DNA of 64,000 nt from an uncultured Solirubrobacteraceae bacterium (GCA_963734755.1 CAVTIF010000001.1:244885-308884); one strand, 5' to 3'; numbered from the stretch's first letter, positions 15,038-38,032 are shown. Notes: a model not told the origin generated them from the sequence alone. Program-made: numbers and translations.

Positions 15038-15043
15038 GCGGCG

Positions 15044-15772: not shown

Positions 15773-15989
15773 GACGCACGCTCTCGCGTACGTCTCGTGC
15801 AGTGTCCTCGAGCTCTCGCTGGGTCTCGTGCAAGCCGCCGCGGCGTACTACGCGGCCTATCCGCCGGAGGTGGACGGGCGTGTCGCGCGCAATCGCCGCG
15901 AGGCACACGACGCCCACAGTGGATTCCTCGCGGCGCGGGACGCTCTCGGCGGTTGAGACTGCCCGCGATGGGGATCTGCCGCGGTTGGG

Positions 15990-18224: not shown

Positions 18225-18416
18225 CTGTCGAGGGTATACCCAAGGCAACGTGCGTTTCGTCACGATGCGAAAAGGAGCCCGGATGGTGGGTTTCGCGAAA
18301 TCTAAGTACGCAATTTGCGTCAATGCGGGGATTGACTATAGGCGCGCGCGGCGCGAAGGTAGGTCATGACGCTGCGCCGCGGACACGCGGCCCGATCGAG
18401 CAAAAGGGAGGCCCAC

Positions 18417-19556: not shown

Positions 19557-19558
19557 CC

Positions 19559-21512: not shown

Positions 21513-21645
21513 TAAGGCGTGCGCTCGCCGCGCCGCAACCCGGCGTGCGGGGCCCGGACGGCTCGCTACACTCGGCCGGTCGACCAAGCCGGTCGGCGGC
21601 AAAGCCGGTCGGGCAACGGTGCAGGCGAGCTCGAGTGAGGTTCAG

Positions 21646-22731: not shown

Positions 22732-24204
22732 TAGTGCTTTGGTAGCTTGTTACTCTTGTTGTGGTGGCCAGTGGAGGGGTAGTTCGTCGAGGTCGATTGT
22801 TTGTTGGCAGGTGGTGCATTGGCCGGTCCAGCACTTGAAGATTGGCTGGAGCAGGAGGACTGCCTGGGGGAGGCTCAGGCCGGCCGCGGGTGATTTGGGT
22901 TCTGCCGCTCCAGGGTCAGGAACCCGTGAGCGGCGGTGACAAGCGCGGTGTGGTGGTACCAGCCGAGATAGGAGCGGCCCTCGTAATGGTCGAGGCCGAG
23001 TTCGCCCTTGAGCTGTTTGTAGTCCAGCTCGATCTTCCAGCGCAGGCGGGCCAGCCGCGCGAGCTGCTCGGGATCGCTGTCGGCGGGGAGGTTTGAGATC
23101 CAGTAGTCGCCCGGCTTCTCGTGGCCCTCGGGCCACTCGGCGATCAGCCACTCTTCTCGGGGTGGCCACGGCGTTCGCTTCTCGGCGCGGTTGGACGCGC
23201 GCACGCGCACGAAGCAGAAGCGCGAGGTGACCGGCTGCTCCTCTGGCCCGTCGCGGAACGGCACGGTCTGGAACTGCTCGCTGGGGAGGCCGACGATCAG
23301 CTGGGCTATCGCCACTGGCTCGCGGTCGGGACGTGGCCGGCTGCGCGGGCGGCCTGTGTCACCCTGGCGCTGCGGGACCGTGAAAGTCGTCTCGGGTGTG
23401 AACACCTTCGTCTCGGCGCCGACGGAAAGCACATACTCGAGCTCGGCGTGATGCAGGCGCTCGCGCAGCACGGTGTTATCACCGTAGGCTTGGTCGCCGA
23501 GCACCGGCGCCCTGGGCACATCCCAGCCGGCGGCACGCTCTATCAGATCCACCCCCAGCTCGGGCTTGGTCTGAAACCCAACCTCGGCGGGGATTTTCGC
23601 TCGCCGGCGACCCTCGGGGTCCTCACACCACTCCTCGGGCAGATATAGCGCCCACCCCAACGGCACCGTCCCCTGCTCGCCGACGGCGTGCACGGAGACA
23701 CCGATCTGGCAGTTGCCGATCTTTCCCAGCGTCCCGGAGTACTGGCGCTTGACCCCCGGCGAGTGCTTGCCGTCCTTGGGGAATCCCGTGTCGTCCAACA
23801 CCCACGCCTGCACGTCGATCTGCGGCGCGACCCGCTCGGCCACGGCGCGCACCACCAGCGCCGGATCCCACGTGCTCACCGCCAAGAAATTCTGCAAGCT
23901 CTCATAGTCAGCCTCGCCGCCCAGCCGCGCGACCATCGGCTCAAGCGACTTCCGCGGCCCCTGCTCAATCAAACCCCGCAGATACACCCCGCCATTCACC
24001 AGCTGCACCGGCCGGTTCACCGCCTCGCCCAACACCTCGACACCGAACACCTCCAGCCGCTCACGAACCGCCGAGGGACTATCCACCTCCGAGGAGCCAG
24101 CCACCACCACAGCCACCATCATGACCTCCCGCGTCGAACTCCTCTCCGCCAGAAGAGTTCGCCACAACCACCACAACCCCTACCAAACAGCTACCAAAGC
24201 ACTA
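22732..24204 (-). mobile_element. Complete IS701-family insertion sequence, 1473 bp
   Basis: Perfect 16-bp IRs TAGTGCTTTGGTAGCT (22732-22747 and 24189-24204); 4-bp target duplication CTAA (22728-22731 and 24205-24208). Confidence 0.95.
22875..24176 (-). CDS. IS701-family DDE transposase (true start probably downstream of 24176)
   Basis: WVLDDTGFPKDGKHSPGVKRQYSGTLGKIGNCQ, DQAYG, RWKIELDYKQLKGELGLDHYEGR. Confidence 0.93.
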   Translation of the reverse strand: MWWLWRTLLAERSSTREVMMVAVVVAGSSEVDSPSAVRERLEVFGVEVLGEAVNRPVQLVNGGVYLRGLIEQGPRKSLEPMVARLGGEADYESLQNFLAVSTWDPALVVRAVAERVAPQIDVQAWVLDDTGFPKDGKHSPGVKRQYSGTLGKIGNCQIGVSVHAVGEQGTVPLGWALYLPEEWCEDPEGRRRAKIPAEVGFQTKPELGVDLIERAAGWDVPRAPVLGDQAYGDNTVLRERLHHAELEYVLSVGAETKVFTPETTFTVPQRQGDTGRPRSRPRPDREPVAIAQLIVGLPSEQFQTVPFRDGPEEQPVTSRFCFVRVRASNRAEKRTPWPPREEWLIAEWPEGHEKPGDYWISNLPADSDPEQLARLARLRWKIELDYKQLKGELGLDHYEGRSYLGWYHHTALVTAAHGFLTLERQNPNHPRPA

Positions 24205-24430: not shown

Positions 24431-24516
24431 GACCGAGAGCCTAGCAACGCGTCGCGTGTCGGTGTCGTAGGCTAGGGCGAACCGCCGTCGATCGCCAGAC
24501 TGACGGACAAGCACCC

Positions 24517-24605
24517 GGAGAGGTGCCGGAGCGGTTGAACGGGCGCGACTGGAAATCGCGTAGCGGGGGAAACCTCGCTCGAGGGTTCGAATCCCTCCCT
24601 CTCCG
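24517..24605 (+). tRNA. tRNA-Ser (anticodon GGA), CCA not encoded
   Basis: Acceptor stem GGAGAGG/CCTCTCC, anticodon loop CT-GGA-AA, long variable arm, GGTTCGAATCC. Confidence 0.95.
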
Positions 24606-24642
24606 TCCACCATCTCACGAAGATCGACGCAGCAAACTGGAG

Positions 24643-25104
24643 TTAGCCGGACGTCGGGAAGCGTCGTCCCTCATCGCCGGTCCACAGTCCACGGCGCTTG
24701 ATCTCTGGCACGAGATAATCGTCGTACATGCGGTAGTGGATGTCGCGGAGGCGTAGAGCCGACTCGGGCTGAGTCATGACGTTGAACATGCGCGCCTCGA
24801 CGTAGCGATCCTTGCGGGCCGTGTGGAAGACGGTGTGGCGGAGTTCGCGCAGGCTGTTGTACAGGCTGGCGTCGAGGGAATCGAGTTCGGACAGGTCGAC
24901 CCCTTTTTCTTTGCAACCCTCAATCACGGAGAACAGCAGTCCGTACCAGAGGTAGAGATAGATGCCGAACGGTTCGACCGTGATGTGCAGCAGTTGATCT
25001 TCGGGCACCGTTAATGCTTCAGCCATAGCTTCGTCGGCCCGCTCGCGCAGCAAGTCGGCACGCATCCATTGGCGGTGCAGCACGCCCAGGGTTTCGAGGC
25101 TCAA
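24643..25104 (-). CDS. Hypothetical helical protein with HEPN-like Rx4H motif
   Basis: LRELRHTVFH (R-HTVF-H) late in an all-helical 153-aa ORF. Confidence 0.55.
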   Translation of the reverse strand: MSLETLGVLHRQWMRADLLRERADEAMAEALTVPEDQLLHITVEPFGIYLYLWYGLLFSVIEGCKEKGVDLSELDSLDASLYNSLRELRHTVFHTARKDRYVEARMFNVMTQPESALRLRDIHYRMYDDYLVPEIKRRGLWTGDEGRRFPTSG

Positions 25105-25338
25105 GCCGCTGAGAGGAATGTGCGTCGCCTTTTCGGTTGCCTAGCGGGCCGGGAGATCAGAGAATCCCAGTTCAGCGGTAGTCGTGGATGAGCGGTCGAT
25201 CCCATGTGCGGTGGCATGTCCGCCGAGCGCTGTATAGACGCCGTTCCTAGCGACGCGCTCGAAGCCAGCGGCCAGTGCAAAGCCCCTGGAGGACCGAGGC
25301 GAACCGATCGTCGTGAGACACGCGGTATCTTGTCCGTG

Positions 25339-25559
25339 ATGGCTGAGCAGCTTGATCTGACGATAGTCTAGAGTCGGGTGAGGAAGGCTGGATCGTCGCA
25401 TCGATCCCCGAGGTAGCTGGGGTCTTCAGCCAGGGTCAGACGCGCGAGGAAGCGCGCGCAAACGTCATCGACGCGTTGCGGCTCATGCTCTCTCCCGAGC
25501 CCAGCGGCGCGGACGATCAACGCGAGCGTGAAGCGCTGCACCTGACGATCGCTGCATAA
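25339..25559 (+). pseudogene. hicB: HicB-family antitoxin with a 1-nt deletion near 25370
   Basis: Restored frame reads MAEQLDLTIV(Y)ESGEEGWIVASIPEVAGVFSQGQTREEARANVIDAL; absent from the ORF track. Confidence 0.8.
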
Positions 25560-25750
25560 AGCGGCGCGATTTGGAGCGCCACCTGCGCGCTCATGGGCGC
25601 CGGCAGGTCGATGAGGGCGGCAACCACGCGCGATGGGCCGGCCCGCAGGGCGAGCGATCGGTGGTTCCACGGCACCGCGAGATCGATTTCGGACTGGCGC
25701 GCAAGATCTGCCGCCAACTCCAGGTTCCGCCGCCAGGCGGCGCACGTTGA
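25556..25750 (+). pseudogene. hicA: HicA-family toxin whose start codon reads ATA
   Basis: (I)KRRDLERHLRAHG...EGGNHARW...VVPRHREIDFGLARKICRQL. Confidence 0.8.
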
Positions 25751-25810
25751 CATGCTCAACCAAAGCGCTGAGCGTGTAGCCCCCTGATGTGCTCCCAGGC
25801 AGGGTCATGT

Positions 25811-25836
25811 TTCGAGAGTCGTCCCTCCCACCCCGT
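25811..25836 (+). repeat. att-like copy A of the tRNA-Ser 3' end
   Basis: TTCGA-GAGTC-G-TCCC-TCCCACC-CCGT; last 15 nt match the tRNA 13/15. Confidence 0.75.
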
Positions 25837-25884
25837 TTTGATCGAAGTGCGAACCCTGGCCGCATCGAGGGCGAGCGGCGCTGG

Positions 25885-26337
25885 TCAGGCGGGGACGTCC
25901 ACGGCGATGTTCGTGCGGCGGGTTAGGCCGACGAGCAGGTTGATGTCGTTTGGGTCGCCGGTGATGATGGTCACCGCGCAGATGCGGCTGCGTTCCTCAG
26001 CGATCGCCACGACCTGTGCATCGGTCGTCGAGATGTCGTGGCGCGAGAGCGCAAGGGCCTCGGTCCGCAGTACGCCGGCCCGCGTGGCGGCCTCGACGGT
26101 CAGCGGCGCGTAGACATCGTGCTCTGCGCCGATGGCCTTGATCAGGCGATCGACGAGTGCATCGGAGCGCCGCTGGCCAGATCGCACCTCAGTAAGAACG
26201 GGAATCGGAATCAGGAGCGCTCCATTGATACGCAGTTTGAACAGTTCGAGATACGCAACGAGCAGATCTCGGTTGGCGGCCAGCGCGCTGACGCCGCCGC
26301 TGTCGAGCAGGAAGTCGCGGCGAGGACGGTTGGTCAC
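25885..26337 (-). CDS. PIN-domain (VapC-like) toxin
   Basis: LLDSG, VLTEV, TTDAQVVAIA, ITGD. Confidence 0.8.
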   Translation of the reverse strand: MTNRPRRDFLLDSGGVSALAANRDLLVAYLELFKLRINGALLIPIPVLTEVRSGQRRSDALVDRLIKAIGAEHDVYAPLTVEAATRAGVLRTEALALSRHDISTTDAQVVAIAEERSRICAVTIITGDPNDINLLVGLTRRTNIAVDVPA

Positions 26338-26516
26338 TCAGGCCAGGCGTCCGAGCGGCGCTGAAGCTCCGGCAGGTGCTTCGAGCCATCGGCACCCTCA
26401 GCGACGAGTTCGTCGCGCAGTTGCTGGAGGCGAGCACGCTGCGCGTCGCGGAGCTTGGGATCATCCACTGGCTGCGGCTCGACATGCGTTGTGATGGCGG
26501 CCTCCATTGAGTTCAT
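26334..26516 (-). CDS. Probable antitoxin
   Basis: 60-aa ORF coupled (GTGA overlap) upstream of the PIN gene. Confidence 0.6.
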   Translation of the reverse strand: MNSMEAAITTHVEPQPVDDPKLRDAQRARLQQLRDELVAEGADGSKHLPELQRRSDAWPE

Positions 26517-26697
26517 TGTATCCAGGGTCTCGGTAGTTGGATTGGCGTTCTTGACTGACGCACAAGGCTACGCACACAGTCACGGAGCAGCGGGTTGGCG
26601 GTCTGCTTGACGGATCGCAGCGACTGCTCGCCGCCGCGCCTCTCGCCCGACGGGCTCCATCAACTCCTCCAGTAGCCGATCCAAGGCGACGACGTGG

Positions 26698-26723
26698 TTC
26701 GCAGGTCGTCCCGGCTTCCCCGT
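26698..26723 (+). repeat. att-like copy B
   Basis: TTCGC-AGGTC-G-TCCC-N7-CCGT, preceded by a ~110-bp segment homologous to those at C and E. Confidence 0.75.
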
Positions 26724-26761
26724 GCCTCAGGTTGCGCCTTCTTAGGGAAAAGCGCGGCCTG

Positions 26762-26779
26762 CTTTACGATATAGTAAAG
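26762..26779. promoter_or_regulatory. Palindromic operator upstream of the AbrB-VapC pair
   Basis: CTTTAC-N6-GTAAAG ending 3 nt before the start. Confidence 0.55.
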
Positions 26780-26781
26780 GC

Positions 26782-27000
26782 GTGCCGCGAATCTCTAGCA
26801 AGCATCAGGTCACGCTGCCGGTGGCAGCACTAGAGCGTGCGGGGCTCAAGGACGGCGACGAGGTCGCGATCGAAGCGGAGGGAGTGGACCGTATCGTGGT
26901 TCGTCGGATCGACAAGGACGTCAAAGCTGCCTTGGGTGTGTTCGACGGCTTGTATGAGGCGGGATACCTGGAGCGATTGCGCTCCGGGGAGCGGGCGTGA
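26782..27000 (+). CDS. vapB: AbrB/MazE-family antitoxin (VapB-like)
   Basis: ISSKHQVTLPVAALERAGLKDGDEV. Confidence 0.85.
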   Translation: MPRISSKHQVTLPVAALERAGLKDGDEVAIEAEGVDRIVVRRIDKDVKAALGVFDGLYEAGYLERLRSGERA

Positions 27001-27401
27001 GCGGCTGCGTTCTCGACACCGATGTGGTGATCGCAGCGTTGGACCGCAAGGACTTCCACCATGCTGATGCGGCTGAGGCCGTGACAGCGATGATCGAGGA
27101 AGGTACGACGCTGCTGCTCTCGCTGATCAACTATGCGGAGACGCTAGTCAAGCCGGCCGAGGATGAGACTGCCATGCGGGCCGCACTGGATGCGGTGAGC
27201 GCTCTAGGAATAGAGCTGATTGCTCCCACGCCTGCTATTGCCCGCGACGCTGCACGGCACCGGGCTCTGAACATCAGCCTCGCGGACGGGTTTGCGATCG
27301 CAACAGCGCAGGCGCGGCACGCCAACCTGGCCACATTCGATCGTCGTGTTCGACGGGCTTTGCTGAAGGTGGGGGTGGAGCTTGCGTCACAGATGACTTG
27401 A
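26997..27401 (+). CDS. vapC: VapC/PIN toxin
   Basis: VLDTDVVIA, YAETL, SLADGFAIA, ATFD. Confidence 0.88.
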   Translation: MSGCVLDTDVVIAALDRKDFHHADAAEAVTAMIEEGTTLLLSLINYAETLVKPAEDETAMRAALDAVSALGIELIAPTPAIARDAARHRALNISLADGFAIATAQARHANLATFDRRVRRALLKVGVELASQMT

Positions 27402-27525
27402 GCCAACAATCTGATTGGGAGTTGCCACTGGCAATCCGGAGATCGCTTTGGCTGCTCGCTCGCGCGCCCTCCGCCCCGCAGGCTCCGTCAGAAGCCCGAG
27501 CAGCCGCTCCAGGTTGGCGCCGGGG

Positions 27526-27551
27526 TTCGCAGGTCGTCCCGATCTCCCCGT
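27526..27551 (+). repeat. att-like copy C
   Basis: TTCGC-AGGTC-G-TCCC-GATCTCC-CCGT. Confidence 0.75.
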
Positions 27552-27659
27552 TTTCGCCTGGGAGACCCTGCGCGAGTTCCGAAAGGTGCCCTACGAAAGC
27601 GTGCCCTGCTCTGGGTCGTCCATCTCTTGTGCAGCCGCCGTATCAGAGGCCAGGGATAT

Positions 27660-27685
27660 TTCGAGGGTCGTCCCGCGATCCCCGT
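27660..27685 (+). repeat. att-like copy D (134 bp after C, leaving an empty unit)
   Basis: TTCGA-GGGTC-G-TCCC-GCGATCC-CCGT. Confidence 0.75.
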
Positions 27686-27746
27686 TTTCGCCGGGGTTGA
27701 GGTCTTTGTTCGAACCGTGCCGCGACACGTGGCATATGCTTTCCGT

Positions 27747-27956
27747 GTGGCGATCAGCGAGGAACGTCGTCGGCTTGCTCGAGAAAGCGAGCAGCGGCTC
27801 GCAGCGACGGCACCCGAGACCAGTCGTGGTGCTGCGGCCTTGCTTCGGGAAGTGATGCCGCGGTTGTCGGGCGAGCGTCAACGCCAGCTCGCCGAGGAGA
27901 TGGCGCGTCGCTTCGAGTCGCGCGCCGATGCGCATTCGCGGCCTTCATCCGTCTGA
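27747..27956 (+). CDS. Small hypothetical protein
   Basis: Helical 69-aa ORF from GTG. Confidence 0.4.
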   Translation: MAISEERRRLARESEQRLAATAPETSRGAAALLREVMPRLSGERQRQLAEEMARRFESRADAHSRPSSV

Positions 27957-28226
27957 TCGTCCCTGGTCTCTCTCCCGGCGTGCTCGGTCTCTCAGCGCTG
28001 CGAGCTGGGACAGGGTCTCATCGAGCGCTGCACCGGCGTCTTGGTGGCCACTTGCGGTCAACACCCCGAGTGCCTCGGCCTCGCTGAGTATCTCGATTGC
28101 GGCGATCGTGTAGACGATCTGCACGTACGCGAGGTCAGCGCCTGCTTGCAGCAATTCTCTCGCCAGCCTCACGACCTCTTCGGTCAGGTCGCGAGCGAGC
28201 CGCATGGTCTCATCTGGATAGCTCAT
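27945..28226 (-). CDS. Small hypothetical protein
   Basis: 93-aa helical ORF with an RBS-like GAGG upstream. Confidence 0.55.
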   Translation of the reverse strand: MSYPDETMRLARDLTEEVVRLARELLQAGADLAYVQIVYTIAAIEILSEAEALGVLTASGHQDAGAALDETLSQLAALRDRARRERDQGRSDG

Positions 28227-28702
28227 CGATCAAGCATCCTCAGAGCCCCGGTTGTTTTTGATCAGCCGATCGTTTGTTTCGTGGGATTGAGTTCGACGCC
28301 GATCGGATGAGCTTAAGGCAGCCGCTCGTTTCGTCTGTGCGTCGATGTGGCGAGTTCCTGGGCTTTGTTGCTTTGGATTGCTGACGATCCGAGGGTGCCC
28401 ATCCACGCCCACTACATCCCGCGATTGCGGTCAGCAACAACGGAAGGACGGCTCGCCAAAGGGCGCGAGAAGATCTTTTTGTCGTCGGGCATGTCCAGGG
28501 CGCCTAGTCCGTAGCCGATATCGACAGGCTCGCCCACCAGCCTTATGTCAATAACCAGCTAATGCCGAATCTAATGGCAGGACTCTTGGCTAGCCCCAAC
28601 GGCTGTTGAAAACTCCGCCTCAGTCGCCACGAATGATTCTCGGCGACTGTCCTCCAGCCGGACCGCTCCTCATGGAGCTGACGGATCAGAGGCCACGGAG
28701 AT

Positions 28703-28728
28703 TTCGAGGACTTTCCCGCCATCTGCGT
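28703..28728 (+). repeat. att-like copy F (degenerate)
   Basis: TTCGA-N5-T-TCCC-N7-GCGT; the upstream ~36 bp closely match those before copy D. Confidence 0.65.
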
Positions 28729-28773
28729 GCCACTCGACATCAAAGCCGTTTGTCGCTTCACGCCTTGTCAAGC

Positions 28774-30122
28774 TCAGCGAGTGATTCTGAAGCCTATGAC
28801 GGAAGGCGGAGCGCTTCCGCCAGCGTTAGCGGCGGTTAGGCGTGCCGTGTAGTTGCCTGGTCTGAGTGGTCGCCGGCCGATGCGGCCGGTGAACGAGATC
28901 CGATCTCCTCCGCCTGGCTCTGACCGTCGCTTTAGCGAGGCGAGGGCGACAGTGCGCCGGCATCTCTTGGCGCTTGCGCGCCGAAGCGCCCGGGTGGGCG
29001 GGAGGCAGAGATGACCGCGCTTGAAGCCTGTCGTGAGGTGGCTGAGCATGACCGTGACGTCTGCCGTGGTGCTGAGGTTGAACAGGAACGCTGATCCAGA
29101 CACGGTTTTCGCGTTGGTCGCTGTCGGTGCTCGAGCGACGCGAAAGCGCCTGTGGGTCATTCGCGCACGAGAGAGTACAGGTGCAGATACCGCTGATGGT
29201 GGGGCTGCGCGCACGTGTCGGATTGCGGCACTCCGGGTGTGCTGAGGCCTGCTTCATATCGGGAGGCGTAGATCCCAGGGGGAGGCGCTGGAGCGGTGAA
29301 CGGCCCGCCCTGTTCCCAGATCGCGACCGCTCTGCCGTCCGGCCCGATGGCGACCTCCGGGGCGCCGCCTTCGGGGCCGGAGATTTCAACGCCGGGCTGC
29401 CATCCTCCGCCAGCCGTCGGGCGGATCGCGCCTCGCACGGTCGTCGGGTAATGGCGAAACACGGAGCACTCCCAAACCGCCGCAGCCGTGCCCGCCGCGT
29501 TCTCCGCTAGTCGGACGGTTTGGGCGCTTCGATCGGACCCGGAGATCACTGATGGCGCTTGCCAGGAGCCGTCGGCGCCGCGTACCGCCGTCTCGACGAC
29601 ACCACCGTCCGAGATTTCTCCAGTCGCAGCCTGGGAGCGGTGAACCCAGGCGGCTGTGGCGTCCCCCTGCGCGTCTACGGCGAGTTGGAGACTGGAGTCG
29701 AGCTCGTTCGCCACATACCGGACCCTGGTGAGGCTGATCGTCACCGGGGTCAGCCAACCGCTGCCGGCGGTCCGCAGCGAGCTTTCGATCATACGATTTT
29801 CGCCGTTGCTCGCCATCCATAGAGCAGTGGCGTTGCCATCGGCGTCGAGGGCAACGCCAGGTTCACCGACGCTTGCAGCGCTCGTGAGCGTGACCGGTGC
29901 TTGCCAGCTGGCTCCGGCAAGTCGGGATGCAGCTTTGATGCTCTCCTGGTCTTTGACGATCAGGGCGCATGGGACGCTTGAAGGTGGCCGCGGGCACGGG
30001 ACGGTTTCTGGTTCATACACGCCCCACACCGCCGCGACTTCACCCCCTGCACGCATGGCAATGCGCGGCTCGCTGTGGCAGGCCATCGCCGACTTTCGCG
30101 ATCTGGACTCCGAACTTCTCAT
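28774..30122 (-). pseudogene. Fragment of a repeat-rich secreted/surface protein, 5'-truncated and frameshifted near 29200
   Basis: Repeated WQAPV...VALDADGNATALW units; C-terminal Ig-like tail ...RPGNYTARLTAANA. Confidence 0.55.
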
Positions 30123-30161
30123 GGCGCGCGAAATCGCTAGCCTCGGCTCGGTCGTAGGCGA

Positions 30162-30599
30162 TCACGGCCGGCACGTCGGGATGTTCGAGCGTGTATTGCA
30201 GGGCGACCGCAGCCTCCACTCGCTGCATGATTGCCTGAGGACAAATTCGAAACGACCCCCTCTCTCGAACCGCGCGCGGAGTCGCGGTCGCAGCAGGAAC
30301 CCGAGATAGTCGGCCAGGATGGAGGTCGCGCCCTCATCTGCACCTGACCCGCCGTAGCCCCACCCCGCTTCCGGCGCGGCGAGGCCAAAGACCGGGGCTG
30401 GCCGGTGGCCACCTTCCAAGGCAAGCTCGACTCGCGTCGAGCGGTCGGTGCTGACCCCAACATAAGCGCCGTCGGTGGAGCGTCGCCGAGGTACGAATCG
30501 CACTCGCCATTCGCGCGCGCCGGTTTGGCTCTTCCTCACAACTCGGGTCGAACCCGCAGTATTCCCCATACGGAGAAGGTCCGTGGGTAGGGCATGCAA
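30162..30599 (-). pseudogene. Possible DUF6166-like remnant
   Basis: GWGYGGSG...SILADYLG resembles the family motif as remembered. Confidence 0.35.
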
Positions 30600-30727
30600 G
30601 CCCTGTCTCGATCAGTAGTTCGAGCAAGCGAGGTTACTTGGTGAGTCCGACGGCTCCAAGATAAGGTCGTGGTCGGGCAGGTCCGAGTCGCTCCTGACAT
30701 ATCTGCGCTCCGCAGAGTCCACAAACA

Positions 30728-31090
30728 TCACCGCGACCTCGAGACGAAAACCAGGCGGTTAGGCCAAGCTTGCGGGTCGGGCCGTGTCTCGAACGTGCCA
30801 TCCAGCGCGCGCACGATTGCGCCAAACTCGTGGTGGCGGATGCCCACCACCACCACGCAGCCGTGGTGAGATTTCCCAGCCTCCAACCACTCGTGACAGA
30901 TGCGCGGGAAATCCGCGACGTCAAACGTCACCATGATGCGCCGTTGGACGTTGGCGAGTTCCATCAGCTCCTCGTCCGGACAGCCGTCGAGGTCGCGCTC
31001 CTCGGCAACCGCAAGCACGTCGTGCTCACGTGCTCTCAGAGCTGCACCGATCCGACGGCCCGACACGTGTGCATCAAGTAGCAGACGCAA
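30728..31090 (-). CDS. DUF5615 PIN-like toxin
   Basis: MRLLLDAHVS...HDV...DEELM...MVTFDVADF. Confidence 0.82.
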   Translation of the reverse strand: MRLLLDAHVSGRRIGAALRAREHDVLAVAEERDLDGCPDEELMELANVQRRIMVTFDVADFPRICHEWLEAGKSHHGCVVVVGIRHHEFGAIVRALDGTFETRPDPQAWPNRLVFVSRSR

Positions 31091-31099
31091 ACTTGTCGT

Positions 31100-31525
31100 T
31101 TAGTCGAGTTGGATCGGGATGATGTCAGCGTCCGGGTACTCCACGCGGAGCTCCGTCAGCGGTCGCCGGTTCAGCGCGATGAAGTCGTCGATCTCCTGCG
31201 GAAAGCGCCCGTAGTAGCTGAGCGCGGTCCGCAGCTCGCGTTCGCCGAGGTCGGTCTCCGCGATTACCCGATCGAGACTCTCGCTGAAGTCCTTGTACGC
31301 CTCAATCACCTGCCACACGTCTAGGCTCGTGCCAATCAACCAGGCGCGACGATTGTAGTCATCACCGCGAAACGCAATCCCGGGAACCGTCCGAGCCTTC
31401 AGTGCCTCCTCTGCCAGCGCCTCCACTACGCTGCCCTTGCTGCGCTTCGTGCGCTTGGCCTCTGCTGTGACGAGACGATCGGTCTCGTCCGAGAGACGCA
31501 GGCTGAATGGTGCTGACTTGGCCAT
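31100..31525 (-). CDS. RHH + DUF433 antitoxin
   Basis: N-terminal SLRL RHH strand; PGIAFR...RRAWLIGTSLDVWQVI...ALSYYGRFPQEID. Confidence 0.8.
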   Translation of the reverse strand: MAKSAPFSLRLSDETDRLVTAEAKRTKRSKGSVVEALAEEALKARTVPGIAFRGDDYNRRAWLIGTSLDVWQVIEAYKDFSESLDRVIAETDLGERELRTALSYYGRFPQEIDDFIALNRRPLTELRVEYPDADIIPIQLD

Positions 31526-31776
31526 GGCTACGATTGTAGTCGATGTATTACGCGGTACTGCATGGTGCTTCCGGCCCACGGTCTGCGCGAGCATCTCAGA
31601 GTCGCCCGACCCCCGTCGGCCGCGCGCTTTCGTAGCCTCCTCGGCCGGGTACAACCGTGCTCACACTCCTTCGTCATAAGGCAGCAGAAACCAAGTCGTA
31701 GGCGATCCAGGCCCCCGGCTTAATTCGTCGTGGTGATCGCAAGATGATCATCGGCTGATATGCGATACTTAAGTGG

Positions 31777-32232
31777 ATGCTTCAGTATCCACTTGCCCGG
31801 CTGACGCCCCCGGAGCCGCCGATCGATGTGGTCTTCCACGCGCTCTCGGATGCAAATCGGCGTGCGATGATCGACCTCCTGATCGACGGGCCCGCATCGG
31901 TGAGCGAGCTCGCACGGCCGCTCGCCATCTCGCTACCGGCGGTCGTCCAGCACCTGCGCGTGCTCGAGGCGAGCGGTCTGGTGCGCTCGCACAAGACGGG
32001 GCGCGTGCGCACGTGCGAGATCGAGCCGATCGCGCTGAGCACGGTCGAGCGCTGGATCAGCGAGCGGCGCGCGACATGGGAGGCCAGGCTCGACCGGCTC
32101 GGTGCTTTTCTGGCCGAGGAGACCGATGAGGCGGAGCCCTCCACACAGTCCAAGAAGACAAGACCGAAAGGAGATCGAAATGAGCGACAGGTCAGCGACA
32201 CATTCGACGTTTGTGATCGAGCGCGACTATGA
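31777..32232 (+). CDS. ArsR family regulator
   Basis: FHALSDANRR, SLPAVVQHLRVLEASGLV, KTGRVRTC. Confidence 0.9.
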   Translation: MLQYPLARLTPPEPPIDVVFHALSDANRRAMIDLLIDGPASVSELARPLAISLPAVVQHLRVLEASGLVRSHKTGRVRTCEIEPIALSTVERWISERRATWEARLDRLGAFLAEETDEAEPSTQSKKTRPKGDRNERQVSDTFDVCDRARL

Positions 32233-32641
32233 CGCATCACCCGCACGCGTGTTCGCGGCGTGGGCGGACGTGAATGCGAAGGGCCAGTGGTTCGGGCCGG
32301 GCGGGGACCAGGGGCACGCCCTCGACTTCCGCGAGGGTGGCCGAGAGCATTTCGAGGCGGCGGTTGCGGGCGCCGTCTACTCCTACGACGCGATCTACGA
32401 AGACATCGTCCCCGACGAGCGGATCGTTTACACCTACAACATGCGTCGAGACGGCATGCGGATGTCTGTATCGGTGACAACCGTCGAGTTGCTCGTCGAT
32501 GGCGGCCAAACACACATGCGCTACACCGAGCAGGGCGTGTTCCTCGATGGCGAGGACACGCCCGAGCTGCGCGAGCACGGGACGGGGGAGATGCTCGACA
32601 AGCTCGGCGAGACGCTCACACAGGGGGCTGCGACGGTATGA
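32180..32641 (+). CDS. SRPBCC family protein
   Basis: HSTFVIERDYDASPARVFAAW, DFREGG, IVYTY. Confidence 0.9.
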   Translation: MSDRSATHSTFVIERDYDASPARVFAAWADVNAKGQWFGPGGDQGHALDFREGGREHFEAAVAGAVYSYDAIYEDIVPDERIVYTYNMRRDGMRMSVSVTTVELLVDGGQTHMRYTEQGVFLDGEDTPELREHGTGEMLDKLGETLTQGAATV

Positions 32642-34230
32642 GTGCGGACGCGAGCGCAACCGGTGCGGCGGCCAGGCTGTCGCGCCCGATCGAGCGCAGC
32701 GGCGCCGAGGGCGGGAGCGATCGCTCGCGCTGGCTCGCGCTCTACGTGCTGTGCATGGGGATGTTGATGATCGTGCTCGACGTGACGATCGTGAACGTCG
32801 CGCTGCCGTCGATCCAGGAAGACCTGCATTTCTCGACGTCGAGCCTCGCGTGGGTCGTCAACGCGTACCTGATCGCGTTCGGAGGGCTGCTGCTGCTCGC
32901 CGGACGCCTGGGTGACCTGGTGGGCCGCCGGCGCATCTTCCTTGCGGGCATCGTGCTGTTCACGAGCGCCTCGCTTCTGTGCGGCGCCGCTCAGGCCGCA
33001 TGGTGGCTCGTGGCCGCGCGGTTCGTCCAGGGCGTCGGCGGCGCGATGACCTCGGCGGTGATCCTCGGGATGATCGTGACGATGTTCCACGACGCGCGCG
33101 AGCAGGCTAAGGCGATCGGCGTGTTCGCGTTCGTCGCCTCGGCGGGCGGCTCCGTGGGCCTGATCGCGGGCGGCATCCTCACGCAGTCGCTTGACTGGCA
33201 CTGGATCTTCTTCGTGAACCTGCCGATCGGCATCGCGACGGTGCTCGCGGCGCGGCGGCTGGTCCCCGACGAGCCGGGCATGGGCCTGCGCGAGGGCGCG
33301 GACGTCCCGGGCGCTGTGCTGATCACGAGCGCGCTGATGCTCGGCGTCTACACGATCGTAGGCCCGGCGGCGAAACACGGCTGGGGCTCGCGGGAAGCGC
33401 TGCTGCTCGGCGCTGGCTCGATCGCGCTGCTCGCCGGGTTCCTGTGGCGCGAGACGCGGGCCGCGAGTCCGCTGATGCCGCTTCGGATCTTCCGCTCGCG
33501 GCCGGTTGCAGCTGCGAACGGGATCCAGATCCTGTCGGTCGCCGGGATGTTCGGGATGTTCTTCCTCGGCGCGTTGTACCTGCGGCGTGTGCTTGGCTAC
33601 GACGCGCTCGAAATCGGTCTCGCGTTCCTCCCCGTGACGATCGCCATGGGGACGCTTTCAATCCGCTATTCAGAGCGCATCCTGATGGCGCTGGGCGCGC
33701 GGCGTGCGCTGCTTTTCGGGCTCACGCTCGTGCTCGCCGGCCTCGTCGTGTTCGCGCTTACGCCTGTGCACGCGAATTACGTGAGGCAGGTCGCACCGTC
33801 AATGCTGCTGCTCGGTCTTGGTGCTGGTATCGCGTTCCCCACCCTGATGAACCTCGCGATGTCGGGCGCGACGCCGCAGGACGCAGGTCTCGCCTCGGGC
33901 CTCGTCAACACCACCGCACAGGTCGGCGGCGCACTCGGCCTGGCGGTGCTCGCGACGCTCTCGACCTCGCGCAGCAGCACGCTGATCGCGGCCGGGCATC
34001 CGCTCGCGTTGGCGCTGACCGCCGGCTACCACCTCGCGTTCTGGGTAGCCGCCGCGCTCGTCGGCTGCGCGCTAGTCGTCGTGCTCGTGGCGGTCGAGCC
34101 CGGCCGTGCGCCCGCGGCAGCGCACGACCCGGCGCATGCGCACGGCGAGAAAGACGCGCACGCCCAGGGGCCCGCGCAGCACGAGGCGAATGCGCATGGC
34201 AGCTCGTCTGTGGAAGGCGCGAACGCGTGA
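32638..34230 (+). CDS. MFS DHA2 (EmrB/QacA-like) efflux transporter
   Basis: LDVTIVNVALPSI, GRLGDLVGRRR, WHWIFFVNLPIG; about 14 TM helices. Confidence 0.93.
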   Translation: MSADASATGAAARLSRPIERSGAEGGSDRSRWLALYVLCMGMLMIVLDVTIVNVALPSIQEDLHFSTSSLAWVVNAYLIAFGGLLLLAGRLGDLVGRRRIFLAGIVLFTSASLLCGAAQAAWWLVAARFVQGVGGAMTSAVILGMIVTMFHDAREQAKAIGVFAFVASAGGSVGLIAGGILTQSLDWHWIFFVNLPIGIATVLAARRLVPDEPGMGLREGADVPGAVLITSALMLGVYTIVGPAAKHGWGSREALLLGAGSIALLAGFLWRETRAASPLMPLRIFRSRPVAAANGIQILSVAGMFGMFFLGALYLRRVLGYDALEIGLAFLPVTIAMGTLSIRYSERILMALGARRALLFGLTLVLAGLVVFALTPVHANYVRQVAPSMLLLGLGAGIAFPTLMNLAMSGATPQDAGLASGLVNTTAQVGGALGLAVLATLSTSRSSTLIAAGHPLALALTAGYHLAFWVAAALVGCALVVVLVAVEPGRAPAAAHDPAHAHGEKDAHAQGPAQHEANAHGSSSVEGANA

Positions 34231-34307
34231 GCCAACCCCGACGCGTCCAGAAGCGGAGCTCTCGATCGTCCGCTCCGAGGTCAAGCAGCGCTTCGACCAG
34301 CCGTTGG

Positions 34308-34336
34308 ATCGCACCGGCTCGTCCCAGGAACGCCGT
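34308..34336 (+). repeat. att-like copy H (degenerate)
   Basis: TCG-TCCC-N7-CCGT with the 5' part displaced by 3 nt; 142 bp before copy E. Confidence 0.5.
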
Positions 34337-34452
34337 GCGAGGGTTGAACCGCCTAAGCCGCGTTGCGGATCGCTGTGGCCGCCCGTCGTCGCGCCTCTCC
34401 TCCCACGGGCTCCAACAGCGCCTCAAGCAGCCGGTCCAGGTTCGCGGCGGGG

Positions 34453-34478
34453 CTCGCAGGTCGTCCCGATCTCTCCGT
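34453..34478 (+). repeat. att-like copy E
   Basis: CTCGC-AGGTC-G-TCCC-GATCTCT-CCGT; ends in CTCTCCGT, identical to the tRNA end. Confidence 0.75.
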
Positions 34479-34572
34479 TGAGGCTTTTCTTGCTGGGGCT
34501 TTCGGGGCTGTGCGAGGGAACGATTGCTAGTCGCTGTCATCAGCAAGGACGCGCCCGAGCGATGATGCCTGC

Positions 34573-34842
34573 TCAGTCGCGGTAGGCGCGACCGCGCGGG
34601 AGCACGCGAGTCACAGTGACGACACGGGCCTGGGTATCAAGGAGAACGAGCGCCCGCCAGTCGCCTATCCGCAGTCGCCACTCTGGCGCGCCCGTGAGCT
34701 TGCGCAGCGGTCCAGCCATGTGCGGGTCTTCGGCGAGCGCGCCTAGCGCACTCTCGACACGTTTACGGACTTGCGGGTCCAGCCGGCGCAGATCGCGCTG
34801 TGCTGTGCGGGTGAGCTGGACGCGCCACGGTGCGTCACTCAC
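34573..34842 (-). CDS. relE: RelE/ParE-family toxin
   Basis: AQRDLRRLD...KLTG...WRLRIGDWR...VLPRGRAY. Confidence 0.9.
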   Translation of the reverse strand: MSDAPWRVQLTRTAQRDLRRLDPQVRKRVESALGALAEDPHMAGPLRKLTGAPEWRLRIGDWRALVLLDTQARVVTVTRVLPRGRAYRD

Positions 34843-35075
34843 TCTGAGTCTCGCAGCGCCTCACCCAGCGACGCGGTGCGACCGGCTGCTAGGTCGGCCC
34901 TGCCCTCGGCGGCTGCCGCCTCGTCCTCGTCAGCCCACGACTCATCGTCGGCAGGGGCGTCGCGGAAGGCTGCGATTACGGGGTCCGTGCGCATATCGAG
35001 CAGGCGAAGGGCCTCGCCGGCCTCTTTCTCGGAAAGCGTCTCGATCCGCTCGCGTAGCTTCTCCTTCGCCGTCAT
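34839..35075 (-). CDS. Antitoxin partner of RelE
   Basis: Acidic 78-aa ORF coupled to relE; ...EGRADLAAGRT. Confidence 0.7.
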   Translation of the reverse strand: MTAKEKLRERIETLSEKEAGEALRLLDMRTDPVIAAFRDAPADDESWADEDEAAAAEGRADLAAGRTASLGEALRDSE

Positions 35076-35193
35076 ACCCATCCGAACAGTAGCGCGCGTC
35101 GAGCGTGGCGCGCGAGCGAGCGATGGAGTGCACGACCCAGCAGAAGCAGCGCTTCGCGCGATACCCAGCCAAGCCGACCAGAGCAAAATCACG

Positions 35194-35689
35194 GTGGTCA
35201 CTGAGCTGTAGTCCGTGAGCGCGTGGCGTGCAACTCGCGAATACGCTTCCACACAAGGTACGTGTTCGAGCTTCGGAATCGGCGCGGTAGCCAGGAGCGG
35301 CGTCAGCCCGAAACGCGCAGGCTCGTGATCGGGCGGAGTGATGCCAATCGAGTCCTGACGCCCTCGTGATCGATGAGCCGGTGGAGCCGACTACGTGGCT
35401 CCTCGTTACGGGGTGGGATTCCATGGCTGCCGAGCGTAAGATGTTGGAGAGATCATGATGCCGTCCCATCTAGATCCGTTGCCCGGCGATTTCGATGAGG
35501 AGCTCGACAGCCCGGACCCCGCTGACGTGCAGGTGGTGCAGCCGTCTCGTGAGCACCATCTGATCGTGGCAGTTCACGCTCGAGGGCGAGGATGCGGTGG
35601 CATTGCAACGGATCGCTGAGGACCAAGGCGAGGGGCCGGGCGAGGTGGTCGGGTCACTGATCCGAGCAGCTTCCGTCAAAGCCGCCTGA
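35194..35689 (+). pseudogene. Decayed BrnT-like toxin plus coupled small antitoxin-like gene
   Basis: Reframed RRLVIGRSDANRVLTLVI...WLLVTGWDS; ATGA overlap at 35455; indels in both genes. Confidence 0.5.
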
Positions 35690-35762
35690 TCGCAGGGTCC
35701 AGCGCCGAGCTGTCTTGCCGTATGCCTAAACCGTAAGGATCGTGAAGCTGGCCCGAGCAGCT

Positions 35763-35781
35763 TTCGCAGGTTATCCGGATC
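35763..35781 (+). repeat. Partial att-like copy I
   Basis: TTCGCAGGTTATCCGGATC matches copy C 16/19; lacks the CCGT end. Confidence 0.45.
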
Positions 35782-36082
35782 GGAGGTCGCGATGGCGTCG
35801 ACCAGCCGGCTCACGCCGACAGCGATGCACGCATCGATTGTGCGGGCCCCAGAGGTTGCTCTGCGTAAGCGACCCGCGGCCCGCGCCGATCGTGCCACTC
35901 GGCCGGACCTGGGCTCGCACGTCGGCCGGCACCTCGCCAAAATCGGCGTTGTCCTCGGCCAGCAACTCCAAGCCGCGAGCGATTCTCAGCTCACGTAGGA
36001 CTGCGGCGTTGACGAATGCGACTGGCTTCCACCGGACCCGGCGAGGCGTTGCTCGGTCTCATTCAGCACGGACTCGTCAAAG

Positions 36083-37078: not shown

Positions 37079-37426
37079 TCACAGTCGAAGGACAGCCGAT
37101 GCAACAGGGCCGGCGCGAGCCCTTGCTCCTGATGCGCCAGAGGCGGCAAAGCGGTCGCTCGCCGGGAAACGCGCGACAGTGCGTACGCGCCTTAGCACGC
37201 CCGGTGGCCGCATCTTGCACCAGCCGAGGGCCGCGAGGGTTGCTATCGCGTCGGCCGCGATGCATAGCGCGGCCTTCTCTTGTTCCTCGTGACAGCAGTC
37301 GCACATCGCGCCGTGGACATCCAGGGCCAATAGGCCAAGTACGAGGATCAATCCCACGAGTGCGACGAGGCGACGGCGCCCAGCCACCACGCTGTTGATG
37401 TCTGCCAGCCGCAGCACGGCCAGCAT
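37079..37426 (-). CDS. Small Cys/His-containing membrane protein (DUF2946-like?); start uncertain
   Basis: TM helix, HGAMCDCCHE...C, C-terminal RARAGP..AVLRL. Confidence 0.4.
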   Translation of the reverse strand: MLAVLRLADINSVVAGRRRLVALVGLILVLGLLALDVHGAMCDCCHEEQEKAALCIAADAIATLAALGWCKMRPPGVLRRVRTVARFPASDRFAASGASGARARAGPVASAVLRL

Positions 37427-37470
37427 TCTAACTGGCGGGCAGCCGCCGTCTCGGACGGTTCGGCAGCGGC

Positions 37471-37794
37471 CTAGCGATCGGGTAGGTCGAGTACCAACAG
37501 CAGAGCGTCGTCGATGGCCTGCAGTTCGTCACGTGTCAGGTGTCCACTTCGTTCACCGAGCGCCCGCGCGTCGACAGCTCCGACCATCTCGCACAGAACC
37601 TGCGTCGGCTGGTCTCCGATCGTGACTTCTGGATGAAAGCTGGCTGCGAACGCCGAGCGCGACGTCGGGCAGATCACGACGGTGGAGAGGGCGAGTAGAT
37701 CGTCAGCTTGGACGATCACCGCGTAACGTCGGCCCTCTTGAACGTGACCGCGCTTACCTGGGAGCTTGATCTGATGGATATCACCACGGACCAC
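37471..37794 (-). CDS. mazF: PemK/MazF-family toxin
   Basis: VRGDI...GHVQEGRRYAVIVQ...VICPTS. Confidence 0.88.
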   Translation of the reverse strand: MVRGDIHQIKLPGKRGHVQEGRRYAVIVQADDLLALSTVVICPTSRSAFAASFHPEVTIGDQPTQVLCEMVGAVDARALGERSGHLTRDELQAIDDALLLVLDLPDR

Positions 37795-38032
37795 GTAGTG
37801 TCTCCATGAGATCGGCGATCTCACGCGCTTCTTGCACGTAGTGCTCGTTCTGCATCAGGCTCCTCACCTCGGCTGCGAGTCCGCCCCGCCGACGCTCGCG
37901 CTCGGCTGTCTCGGTGATCGCCTGTCGCGCTGCCTCAGCGCGACTCAAACCTCGCCTCCGTGCAATCTCATCGAGCGCGCTCAGACCATCGCGACCGAGG
38001 CGCAAGGACAGCGGGTGGGGGGCGGACGCCAC
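37781..38032 (-). CDS. RHH/CopG-family antitoxin
   Basis: LSLRL...LDEIARRRGLSRAEAARQAI; overlaps the mazF start. Confidence 0.78.
   Translation of the reverse strand: MASAPHPLSLRLGRDGLSALDEIARRRGLSRAEAARQAITETAERERRRGGLAAEVRSLMQNEHYVQEAREIADLMETLRGPW

What the first reader, a model, noticed from the sequence alone, without database searches (positions are those of the whole stretch)
24584..35790. tRNA-Ser-anchored array of integrase-less gene cassettes separated by att-like repeats
Seen: the tRNA-Ser 3' end (TTCGA-A-TCCC-N7-CCGT) recurs downstream as TTCG(A/C)-N5-N-TCCC-N7-CCGT, i.e. with a fixed 5-nt insertion in the T-loop. Copies are at 25811, 26698, 27526, 27660, 28703 and 34453, with degenerate ones at 34308 and 35763. 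They cut the island into units of about 1230, 887, 828, 134, 1043, 5608, 142 and 1310 bp. Most units carry one small module (HEPN+HicBA, PIN TA, AbrB-VapC, RelE TA). Two units are empty and hold only the conserved ~135-bp end. No recombinase lies in the array. Known: tandem integration at tRNA 3' ends leaves att scars, and integron arrays accumulate TA cassettes. Inference: these are non-autonomous mini-elements stacked one at a time at the tRNA by a recombinase acting in trans, an integron-like platform that uses a tRNA as the entry site.
Basis: partly seen in the sequence, partly recalled or inferred. Interest (0 to 1): 0.88.

Follow-up and report, generated by a model that had tools for sequence, protein, structure and literature searches.

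The report
Serine-recombinase att arms framing toxin-antitoxin cassettes
The repeats downstream of tRNA-Ser are real attachment-site arms, each also carrying the last ~40 codons of a large serine recombinase gene. They frame small recombinase-less toxin-antitoxin modules that related species hold in other orders and at other tRNAs. This is a new variant of the known stacking of mobile islands at a tRNA.

Summary
A core, GGGTTCGCAGGTCGTCCCGAyCTCCCCGT, occurs five times in direct orientation after tRNA-Ser(GGA). There are also one degenerate and one truncated copy. It occurs nowhere else in the 3.4 Mb genome except beside tRNA-Ser(GCT) and beside a recombinase stump.

The repeat is not a decayed tRNA scar, an integron attC or an RNA. 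It is homologous to the 3' end of large serine recombinase (LSR) genes of this genus.

In relatives, intact LSRs abut tRNA genes and read antisense into them. One complete 16.6 kb element has the layout tRNA-Ser | LSR ... tail-core. Joining its two ends in silico restores an in-frame LSR with the conserved tail.

The cassettes (PIN, AbrB-VapC, ParE, MazEF) recur in congeners in different order. They sit at tRNA-Ser(GGA, GCT, CGA) and tRNA-Gln, and the arm's 3' end covaries with the anchoring tRNA.

This genome holds no intact cognate LSR, only pseudogenes.

The closest known systems are the Dehalococcoides ssrA islands and SCC composite islands (LSR-driven tandem accretion with integrase-less units). 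Whether the units move in trans or are retained stumps is unresolved.

The parts
24516..24609 (+). tRNA-Ser(GGA). Its 3' end (GGGTTCGAA TCCCTCCCTCT CC GT) is the attB-type (B) arm and the entry point.
   Evidence: ARAGORN and Rfam tRNA, 56 bits. Orthologous tRNA in 15 congeners with different downstream content.
24610..25836 (.). Unit 1. Contains a HEPN-like ORF 24643-25104(-) and frameshifted ORFs 25141-25789(-). Ends in the type-B core at 25808-25836. It may be two units, because G223 has only the 25340-25719 part after its tRNA-Ser(GGA).
25837..26726 (.). Unit 2. PIN toxin 25885-26337(-), small antitoxin 26334-26516(-), then the type-A LSR tail plus core at 26602-26726.
   Evidence: Pfam PIN; nhmmer E=8e-33. 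The whole unit is 92% identical in G242. It is also in G201 and G002, and directly after the tRNA in G003.
26727..27555 (.). Unit 3. AbrB/MazE-type antitoxin 26782-27000(+), VapC PIN toxin 26997-27401(+), then the type-A tail plus core at 27430-27555.
   Evidence: Pfam; nhmmer E=5e-32. The same cargo lies after tRNA-Ser(GGA) in G004, after tRNA-Gln in G223 and in a tRNA-Ser(CGA) array in G194.
27556..27686 (+). 'Empty' unit: only a type-B tail plus core (27630-27686).
27687..28728 (.). Unit 5. Small ORFs 27732-27956(+) (weak RelB-like match) and 27945-28226(-). Ends in a degenerate type-B tail plus core at 28657-28728.
   Evidence: 88% identical block follows a core in the tRNA-Ser(GGA) array of G285. 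NCBIfam E=0.015. Repeat family D2.
28729..34483 (.). Unit 6 (5.7 kb). DUF5615 PIN-like 30728-31090(-), RHH protein 31100-31654(-), ArsR regulator 31777-32232(+) and an MFS transporter ending at 34230(+). There is a possible degenerate tail near 34270-34340. Ends in the type-A tail plus core at 34356-34483.
   Evidence: Pfam; nhmmer E=2e-33. Pieces are shared with G009 after its tRNA-Ser(GGA).
34484..35275 (.). Unit 7. ParE toxin 34573-34842(-) and antitoxin 34839-35075(-). Ends in a truncated type-B tail/core at 35218-35275.
   Evidence: Pfam ParE. The cargo is 80% identical to a block just left of a core in G201. The truncated copy matches cores in G194 and G009.
35275..36081 (.). Distal units without a clean arm. 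35275-35715 is 84% identical to DNA just downstream of this genome's own tRNA-Ser(CGA). 35723-36081 follows cores in G001 and G223.
37471..38032 (-). MazF toxin (37471-37824) and RHH antitoxin (37781-38032). A homologous module sits directly right of a core in the tRNA-Ser(GCT) array of G003.
   Evidence: Pfam; blastn 76%. No core was found to its left in the window.

Best explanation
What the repeats are. Each repeat is the P arm of a tRNA-targeting large serine recombinase (LSR) element of the AICE-like kind common in this Solirubrobacteraceae genus. An arm holds an attP-type half-site (GGGTTCGCA, then 16 nt, then the invariant CC). On the opposite strand it holds the last 35-45 codons of the LSR gene (consensus GRxANPxAxLDRLLExLMEPVGRxARRRAAxAIR).

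How a full element behaves. attP lies inside the 3' end of the LSR gene. Integration at the 3' end of a tRNA leaves the layout tRNA | LSR body ... cargo ... tail-core |. The integrated LSR then ends in tRNA-antisense codons, and its native tail sits at the far end of the element.

How the window array formed. Several such insertions occurred at tRNA-Ser(GGA), each pushing older ones outward. All LSR-bearing parts are gone. What remains are small modules, mostly toxin-antitoxin pairs, each closed on its right by a tail-core arm.

Why they look like cassettes. The modules are shared with other species in other orders and at other tRNAs, so they behave as cassettes.

Likely route of movement (inferred). 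A full element that lands at the tRNA can excise using a more distal arm. That arm also restores the element's LSR reading frame, so the modules in between travel with it. Alternatively an LSR acts on them in trans.

Current state. This genome has no intact cognate LSR, so the array is static unless an element arrives.

Shown: the homology, the site geometry, the tRNA linkage and the cassette sharing. Inferred: the order of events and any present-day mobility.
For: 1. The repeat equals an LSR 3' end. The intact 612-aa LSR of G184 (Resolvase, Recombinase and Zn_ribbon_recom domains) ends in core plus tail. An orphan copy lies 18 nt past its stop codon.
2. Database homologs diverge after a conserved GGFSxExxV motif. 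Some continue into this tail. Others continue into tRNA-antisense peptides such as ...RAGLEPAPPD or ...MRGLEPPPGYPDTDLNRARLPIPPHPR.
3. G240 carries tRNA-Ser(GCT) | LSR ... 16.6 kb ... tail-core. Joining its ends gives an in-frame 646-aa LSR with the conserved tail. A join in G227, at tRNA-Ala, gives the same result.
4. Site geometry. In the tRNA (B arm) the GGGTTCGAA motif lies 11 nt from the CC centre. In the repeat (P arm) it lies 16 nt away, and in P' 14 nt. This is the 5-bp ZD-motif shift described for serine integrases (PMC3783163; sequences).
5. Of 38 copies at 29 loci, 19 lie downstream of a same-strand tRNA-Ser and 4 downstream of tRNA-Gln. The arm's last bases covary with the tRNA: Ser ...CTCYCCGT, Gln ...CGCCCAGT, Ala ...CTCCCCAC.
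6. In this genome the core occurs only in the tRNA-Ser(GGA) array and next to tRNA-Ser(GCT). A weaker copy overlaps an LSR stump.
7. Cassette sharing and reordering among congeners.
8. The closest precedent has the same architecture: LSR adjacent to attL on the reverse strand, tandem islands, and 15 islands without an integrase (PMC3146451).
Against: - No LSR in the window and no intact cognate LSR in the genome. Only pseudogenes exist, at C2:363355-364662, 445168-446263, 528647-530150 and 555869-556489.
- Canonical serine integrases do not insert into an occupied attL-type site without a directionality factor, so how stacking occurs is unexplained.
- The exact crossover is inferred from symmetry and frame only.
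- Two recurrent right-flank families do not fit the simple P'/B' geometry (see notebook).
- All comparisons are between species, so vertical descent with loss cannot be separated from transfer for most cassettes.
Confidence: 0.55

Rival explanations
1. Same origin, but the units are immobile stumps. Each is the right end of a once-complete LSR element. It was left behind when the rest was lost and kept because its toxin-antitoxin pair penalises loss. Under this view, sharing between species reflects descent, differential loss and homologous recombination between the 75-90% identical arms, not site-specific movement of cassettes.
For: - The complete G240 element carries a HEPN-type module directly left of its tail-core arm, so TA-like genes do sit at that end.
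- Most window units are TA modules.
- Several arms are degenerate or truncated: 28703, 35218-35275, 34308.
- There is no intact LSR in the genome.
- G003 shows an ordinary deletion inside the unit 2 / unit 3 pair.
Against: - The same cargo with the same approximate left and right limits occurs at different tRNAs: Ser-GGA, Ser-CGA and Gln.
- Unit 2 is 92% identical in G242, above the 71-87% identity of the flanks shared with other congeners.
- 'Empty' tail-core units recur in several genomes.
- The tails stay open and conserved at the protein level although no LSR is attached.
Confidence: 0.3
2. The repeat is a small conserved gene or a regulatory or structured nucleic-acid element (mini-ORF, sRNA or REP-like repeat) that merely accompanies TA modules. 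It would have nothing to do with recombination.
For: A conserved open frame of about 45 codons reads out of each type-A copy.
Against: - The peptide is the C-terminus of full-length LSRs.
- No Rfam family matches.
- Single-strand folding is no better than shuffles, z from -1.2 to +1.05, and no structure is shared.
- The copies are linked to tRNAs and covary with them.
- The copies have a fixed orientation regardless of cargo orientation.
Confidence: 0.05
3. The repeats are classical tyrosine-integrase island scars, that is decayed partial duplicates of the tRNA-Ser 3' end, or an integron-type array with attC sites.
For: The position downstream of a tRNA and the resemblance to its 3' end.
Against: - The 5-nt gap is fixed in all copies across species rather than random decay.
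- About 85 nt of LSR coding sequence is attached to the core.
- No tyrosine recombinase lies in the island. The nearest are at window positions about 52-56 kb, in a separate tRNA-Arg island.
- There is no attC-like hairpin.
Confidence: 0.03

Closest known systems
Dehalococcoides ssrA-specific genomic islands (DsiB, a CcrB-like large serine recombinase; PMC3146451)
   Same: A large serine recombinase gene sits on the reverse strand next to attL at the 3' end of a t(m)RNA gene. Tandem islands lie downstream, separated by att repeats. Many islands lack an integration module and were proposed to be cis-mobilizable.
   Different: - There the repeat is a 20-bp exact copy of the ssrA end. Here it is an attP-type arm with the 5-bp shift plus about 85 nt of LSR coding tail.
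- The targets here are several tRNAs (Ser, Gln, Ala, Asp), not ssrA.
- The units here shrink to single TA modules of 0.13-1.3 kb.
- No second small recombinase was seen.
- The recombinases were not compared directly.
SCC composite islands at rlmH/orfX in staphylococci (CcrAB/CcrC) and CIME/tandem accretion in ICESt1/ICESt3
   Same: Recombinase-less units bounded by att repeats stack beside a conserved gene's 3' end. They are thought to move with, or by, a neighbouring autonomous element. (From my own knowledge; the SCC parallel is also drawn in PMC3146451.)
   Different: - The host phylum and target differ.
- In SCC the repeat copies the target gene's end, not the recombinase gene's end.
- CIMEs of ICESt use a tyrosine integrase.
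Serine-integrase attP/attB geometry (A118/LI integrase model, PMC3783163)
   Same: The outer motif sits 5 bp closer to the centre in the B arm (tRNA) than in the P arm (repeat). The inner (RD) part keeps its register.
   Different: This is inferred from sequence alone. The absolute positions are 1-2 bp off the LI integrase numbers (11/16 against 10/15 spacer nt). The central dinucleotide is not proven.
SSV-type 'suicidal' integrases of archaea (att site inside the integrase gene; PMC8371274)
   Same: The att site lies within the recombinase's own reading frame and the target is a tRNA gene, so integration splits the gene.
   Different: [quoted passage not shown]
- Here a bacterial serine recombinase loses only its last 35-45 residues and gains tRNA-antisense codons, so it probably stays active.
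Mycobacterial AICEs with serine recombinases at tRNA-Leu; tycheposon islands at tRNAs in Prochlorococcus
   Same: [quoted passage not shown]
   Different: No cassette arrays with recombinase-tail arms are described there. 474 of the 501 tycheposons carry tRNA-associated tyrosine recombinases, and their islands are bounded by partial tRNAs.

Membership tests
Large-serine-recombinase attachment sites | A cognate LSR gene (Resolvase, Recombinase and zinc-ribbon domains) lies next to the site in autonomous copies. | tested here: met
   G184, G240 and G227 carry intact LSRs contiguous with the core or with the tRNA. This is not met in the window itself.
Large-serine-recombinase attachment sites | attB half-sites carry the outer (ZD) motif 5 bp closer to the centre than attP half-sites. 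| tested here: met
   tRNA: GGGTTCGAA, 11 nt, CC. Repeat: GGGTTCGCA, 16 nt, CC. The gap is fixed in 38 copies. The rule is taken from PMC3783163.
Large-serine-recombinase attachment sites | Partners share a short identical crossover dinucleotide. | tested here: inconclusive
   CC is invariant in the tRNA-Ser arrays, and the tRNA-Gln arms and tRNA both have CA at that position. The position is inferred from symmetry and reading frame only.
Large-serine-recombinase attachment sites | Recombination by the enzyme. | not testable with these tools
Tandem accretion / cis-mobilizable elements (ssrA-GI, SCC and CIME type) | Units bounded by direct att repeats, lacking a recombinase, at the site used by an autonomous relative. 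| tested here: met
   Direct arms delimit the units. There is no recombinase in the island. An autonomous element occupies tRNA-Ser(GCT) in G240.
Tandem accretion / cis-mobilizable elements (ssrA-GI, SCC and CIME type) | Units are actually mobilised (excision or transfer). | not testable with these tools
   The only evidence is indirect: the same units in different order and at different tRNAs.
Integron | An IntI tyrosine integrase with attI and Pc at the head of the array. | tested here: not met
   No PF00589 hit lies in the island. The tRNA is preceded by an IS701-type transposase.
Integron | attC sites that fold as imperfect single-stranded hairpins. | tested here: not met
   DNA folding z-scores range from -1.2 to +1.05 and no structure is shared.
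Tyrosine-integrase tRNA islands | An exact partial copy of the tRNA 3' end at the distal border, and a tyrosine integrase. | tested here: not met
   All copies carry the 5-nt gap and differ in the acceptor part. No tyrosine integrase is present.

The most novel reading that the evidence does not exclude
Solirubrobacteraceae may run an LSR-based cassette system. Single defence or TA modules carry a 'ticket' made of a P half-site plus the recombinase's C-terminal exon-like tail. Any LSR element that lands at the tRNA can then pick the modules up, because excision through a distal arm restores its own reading frame. The swap of the LSR C-terminus (native tail in the circle, tRNA-antisense codons in the chromosome) would act as a built-in directionality or activity switch. 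That would be a bacterial, serine-recombinase counterpart of the archaeal split-integrase principle.
Probability: 0.3. Interest if true: 0.8.

Novelty: new variant of a known kind. Interest (0 to 1): 0.62.

Why it matters
- It gives a natural, multi-genome illustration of the attP/attB half-site rule of serine integrases on tRNA targets. LSRs are reported to use such targets only rarely.
- It shows a bacterial recombinase whose att site lies inside its own reading frame, so that integration exchanges the C-terminal tail. A 2021 review states that recombinases which disrupt their own gene are exclusive to archaea.
- It explains how dense TA/defence islets at tRNA genes can form without a resident integrase.
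- It offers a family of tRNA-specific LSRs with defined att arms that could be tested as integration tools.

Tried and rejected
- Rfam scan of the island: only the tRNA matched.
- Single-strand folding of three copies on both strands: no better than shuffles.
- An apparent GTTCEP frame that first suggested a DUF2283-like or other gene end was a wrong frame. The LSR frame reads GRPAN....
- An iterated nhmmer profile built from 52 copies did not recover further degenerate copies in the window.
- No core was found left of the MazEF module at 37300-37480.
- Searching this genome for an intact cognate LSR with three queries found only pseudogenes and distant LSRs of 23-28% identity.
- The two recurrent right-flank families could not be assigned to P' or B' (notebook).
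- Pfam and NCBIfam gave no names for the unit 1 and unit 5 ORFs beyond weak hints.

Full report
**1. Observation**

tRNA-Ser(GGA) lies at 24516-24609.

Repeat finding and nhmmer show two classes.
- Type A is about 125 nt. It lies at 26602-26726, 27430-27555 and 34356-34483 (E<1e-31).
- Type B is shorter. It lies at 25808-25836, 27630-27686 and, degenerate, at 28657-28728.

- A truncated type-B copy at 35218-35275 was missed.
- 34308 is weak.
- 35763 lies in a segment that congeners carry to the right of their cores, so it is probably not a copy.

In the whole 3.43 Mb genome the core occurs only in three places.
- In this array.
- About 840 nt downstream of tRNA-Ser(GCT) on contig 2, with an inverted partial copy beside it.
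- In weaker form, overlapping a truncated recombinase gene at C2:555869-556489.

No serine or tyrosine recombinase lies between 24.6 and 39.5 kb.

**2. What the repeat is**

On the minus strand the type-A copies encode a conserved peptide with consensus GRxANPxAxLDRLLExLMEPVGRxARRRAAxAIR.

A congener, G184, has an intact 612-aa large serine recombinase (LSR) with Resolvase, Recombinase and Zn_ribbon_recom domains. Its C-terminus is this peptide, and an orphan copy of the repeat lies 18 nt past its stop codon.

Database homologs share a GGFSxExxV motif and then end in one of two ways.
- With this tail.
- With typical tRNA-antisense translations, such as ...RAGLEPAPPD or ...MRGLEPPPGYPDTDLNRARLPIPPHPR.

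So members of this family sit beside tRNA genes and read into them. The tail is what the gene carries when it is not joined to a tRNA.

**3. A complete element**

In G240, tRNA-Ser(GCT) is followed 44 nt later by an LSR on the opposite strand. After it come a Replication-relaxation protein, an FtsK/TraB-like ATPase and other genes. A tail-core repeat lies 16.5 kb downstream.

The two ends share CTCTCCG. Joining them in silico gives an in-frame 646-aa LSR ending ...GRRANPVAVLDRLLEELIEPVGRAARRRAVAAIRQTDRQLAAP*.

A second case, G227 at tRNA-Ala, also gives the tail in frame, when joined at the dinucleotide before the shared CAC.

Related 500-aa LSRs abut tRNA-Asp in G140 and G146.

attP therefore lies inside the 3' end of the LSR gene, and integration exchanges the last 35-45 residues.

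**4. The 5-nt 'insertion'**

In the tRNA the motif GGGTTCGAA is followed by 11 nt and then CC. In the repeat GGGTTCGCA is followed by 16 nt and then CC.

In clean attL sites the other arm (P') has GATCGAAAC or GTTCGAACC 14 nt from that CC.

This is the relation described for serine integrases. The zinc-ribbon-domain motif occupies positions 16-24 in attP half-sites and 11-19 in attB half-sites (PMC3783163).

The gap is fixed in all 38 copies collected from 29 loci. The tRNA 3' end is thus the B arm and the repeat core is the P arm. That position is inferred, not shown.

**5. tRNA linkage and covariation**

Of the 38 copies, 19 lie downstream of a same-strand tRNA-Ser (GGA, GCT or CGA). Four lie downstream of tRNA-Gln(TTG), one of tRNA-Ala and one of tRNA-Val. 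For 13 copies no same-strand tRNA was found in the 8-20 kb of upstream sequence held.

The last bases of the arm follow the anchoring tRNA.
- tRNA-Ser arrays: ...CTCYCCGT.
- tRNA-Gln arrays: ...CGCCCAGT (the tRNA ends ...CCCCCAG).
- tRNA-Ala: ...CTCCCCAC.

Chance linkage to tRNA-Ser or tRNA-Gln would be about 2% by my estimate (7 genes, 17 kb, one strand, 3.4 Mb).

**6. Cassettes**

Units recur in other species in other contexts.
- Unit 2 (PIN pair plus arm) is 92% identical in G242 and is also present in G201 and G002. In G003 it follows the tRNA-Ser(GGA) after about 90 nt, so unit 1 is extra in the window.
- Unit 3 (AbrB-VapC) follows tRNA-Ser(GGA) in G004. It follows tRNA-Gln in G223, where it has its own tail-core arm. 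It also follows a core in a tRNA-Ser(CGA) array in G194.
- Unit 5 follows a core in G285.
- The ParE pair precedes a core in G201.
- The MazEF pair follows a core in G003.
- Window 35275-35715 has an 84% identical paralogue just downstream of this genome's own tRNA-Ser(CGA).

Spacings of 0.7-1.3 kb between cores, and 'empty' tail-core units, recur in several genomes.

**7. Mechanism and its limits**

The simplest reading is LSR-driven tandem accretion at the tRNA, with loss of the LSR-bearing parts. Two routes for the small units remain open.

- Movement in trans or as hitchhikers. A full element excises through a distal arm, which also restores its LSR frame.
- Retention of right-end stumps, because their TA pairs penalise loss.

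Features favouring movement:
- the conserved, open tails;
- the shared limits of the same cargo at different tRNAs;
- the 92% identical unit.

Features favouring stumps:
- the degenerate arms;
- the HEPN-type module next to the arm of the complete G240 element;
- the absence of any intact cognate LSR here. Only pseudogenes remain, at C2:363355-364662, 445168-446263, 528647-530150 (beside tRNA-Asp) and 555869-556489.

How a unit enters an already occupied attL-type site is unexplained, because canonical serine integrases do not use such sites. Two recurrent right-flank families also do not fit the simple geometry.

**8. Comparison with known systems**

The closest system is the family of Dehalococcoides ssrA islands. 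There a CcrB-like LSR sits on the reverse strand next to attL. Tandem islands lie downstream of the tmRNA gene, and 15 islands without an integration module were proposed to be cis-mobilizable (PMC3146451). SCC composite islands work similarly.

LSR integration into tRNA genes is reported as rare (PMC3218068).

An att site inside the recombinase's own gene is known for archaeal SSV-type tyrosine integrases, and a review states that this is exclusive to archaea (PMC8371274).

The array is not an integron. It has no IntI and no attC-like folding. It is also not a set of tyrosine-integrase scars.

**9. Verdict**

The finding is a new variant of a known kind: LSR tandem accretion with recombinase-less units. 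Three features are distinctive.
- The arms carry the recombinase's own coding tail.
- The attB/attP shift is visible on tRNA targets.
- The cargo is reduced to single TA modules shared across several tRNAs.

Noticed in passing
own genome C2:528647-530150, C2:363355-364662, C2:445168-446263, C2:555869-556489: Four frameshifted or truncated large serine recombinase genes lie on the 724 kb second replicon. One sits beside tRNA-Asp(GTC), and one has its 3' end overlapping a copy of the repeat. No intact member of the family remains in the genome.
   Followed up: partly
own genome C1:2450994-2451085 and about 700 nt downstream; window 35275-35715: The region just downstream of tRNA-Ser(CGA) carries an 84% identical paralogue of window 35275-35715. 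It begins with the same TTTTGG...GTTGTTGCTCGAAC flank that follows many cores elsewhere. That tRNA probably also hosts cassette remains without a clean arm.
   Followed up: partly
window 22875-24176 (-): An IS701-type DDE transposase (DDE_5, E=2e-65) is inserted just upstream of tRNA-Ser(GGA). Congeners have the L,D-transpeptidase gene (21619-22731) next to the tRNA instead.
   Followed up: partly
L004 9527-9620 (G008): ARAGORN calls a 94-nt 'tRNA-Ala(cgc)' that abuts a repeat copy on the other strand. It may be a miscall caused by the tRNA-like core, or a real tRNA-like remnant.
   Followed up: no
joined G300 locus (L057+L036), about 20000-20255: A tail-core arm abuts tRNA-Pro(TGG) in inverted orientation, with the 3' end of the tRNA facing the right end of the core. 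This is a different junction type from all the others.
   Followed up: no
joined G240 locus (L051+L037), 3440-20015: A complete 16.6 kb element. It carries the LSR, a Replication-relaxation protein, a 723-aa FtsK/TraB-like ATPase and an 800-aa Cys-rich repeat protein. It also carries an XRE-HTH protein with an HExxH motif and a HEPN-like module next to the right arm. This is an AICE-like layout, read from ORF translations without domain scans.
   Followed up: partly
window 30728-31654 (-): A DUF5615 (PIN-like) gene is paired with a 184-aa protein that has only a weak RHH match. DUF5615 usually pairs with DUF433 (from my own knowledge), so this may be an unusual antitoxin partner.
   Followed up: no
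window 17500-39500: G+C is 61-67% across this stretch, against 69-72% in the flanks. The low-GC zone therefore begins about 7 kb upstream of the tRNA, not at it.
   Followed up: no
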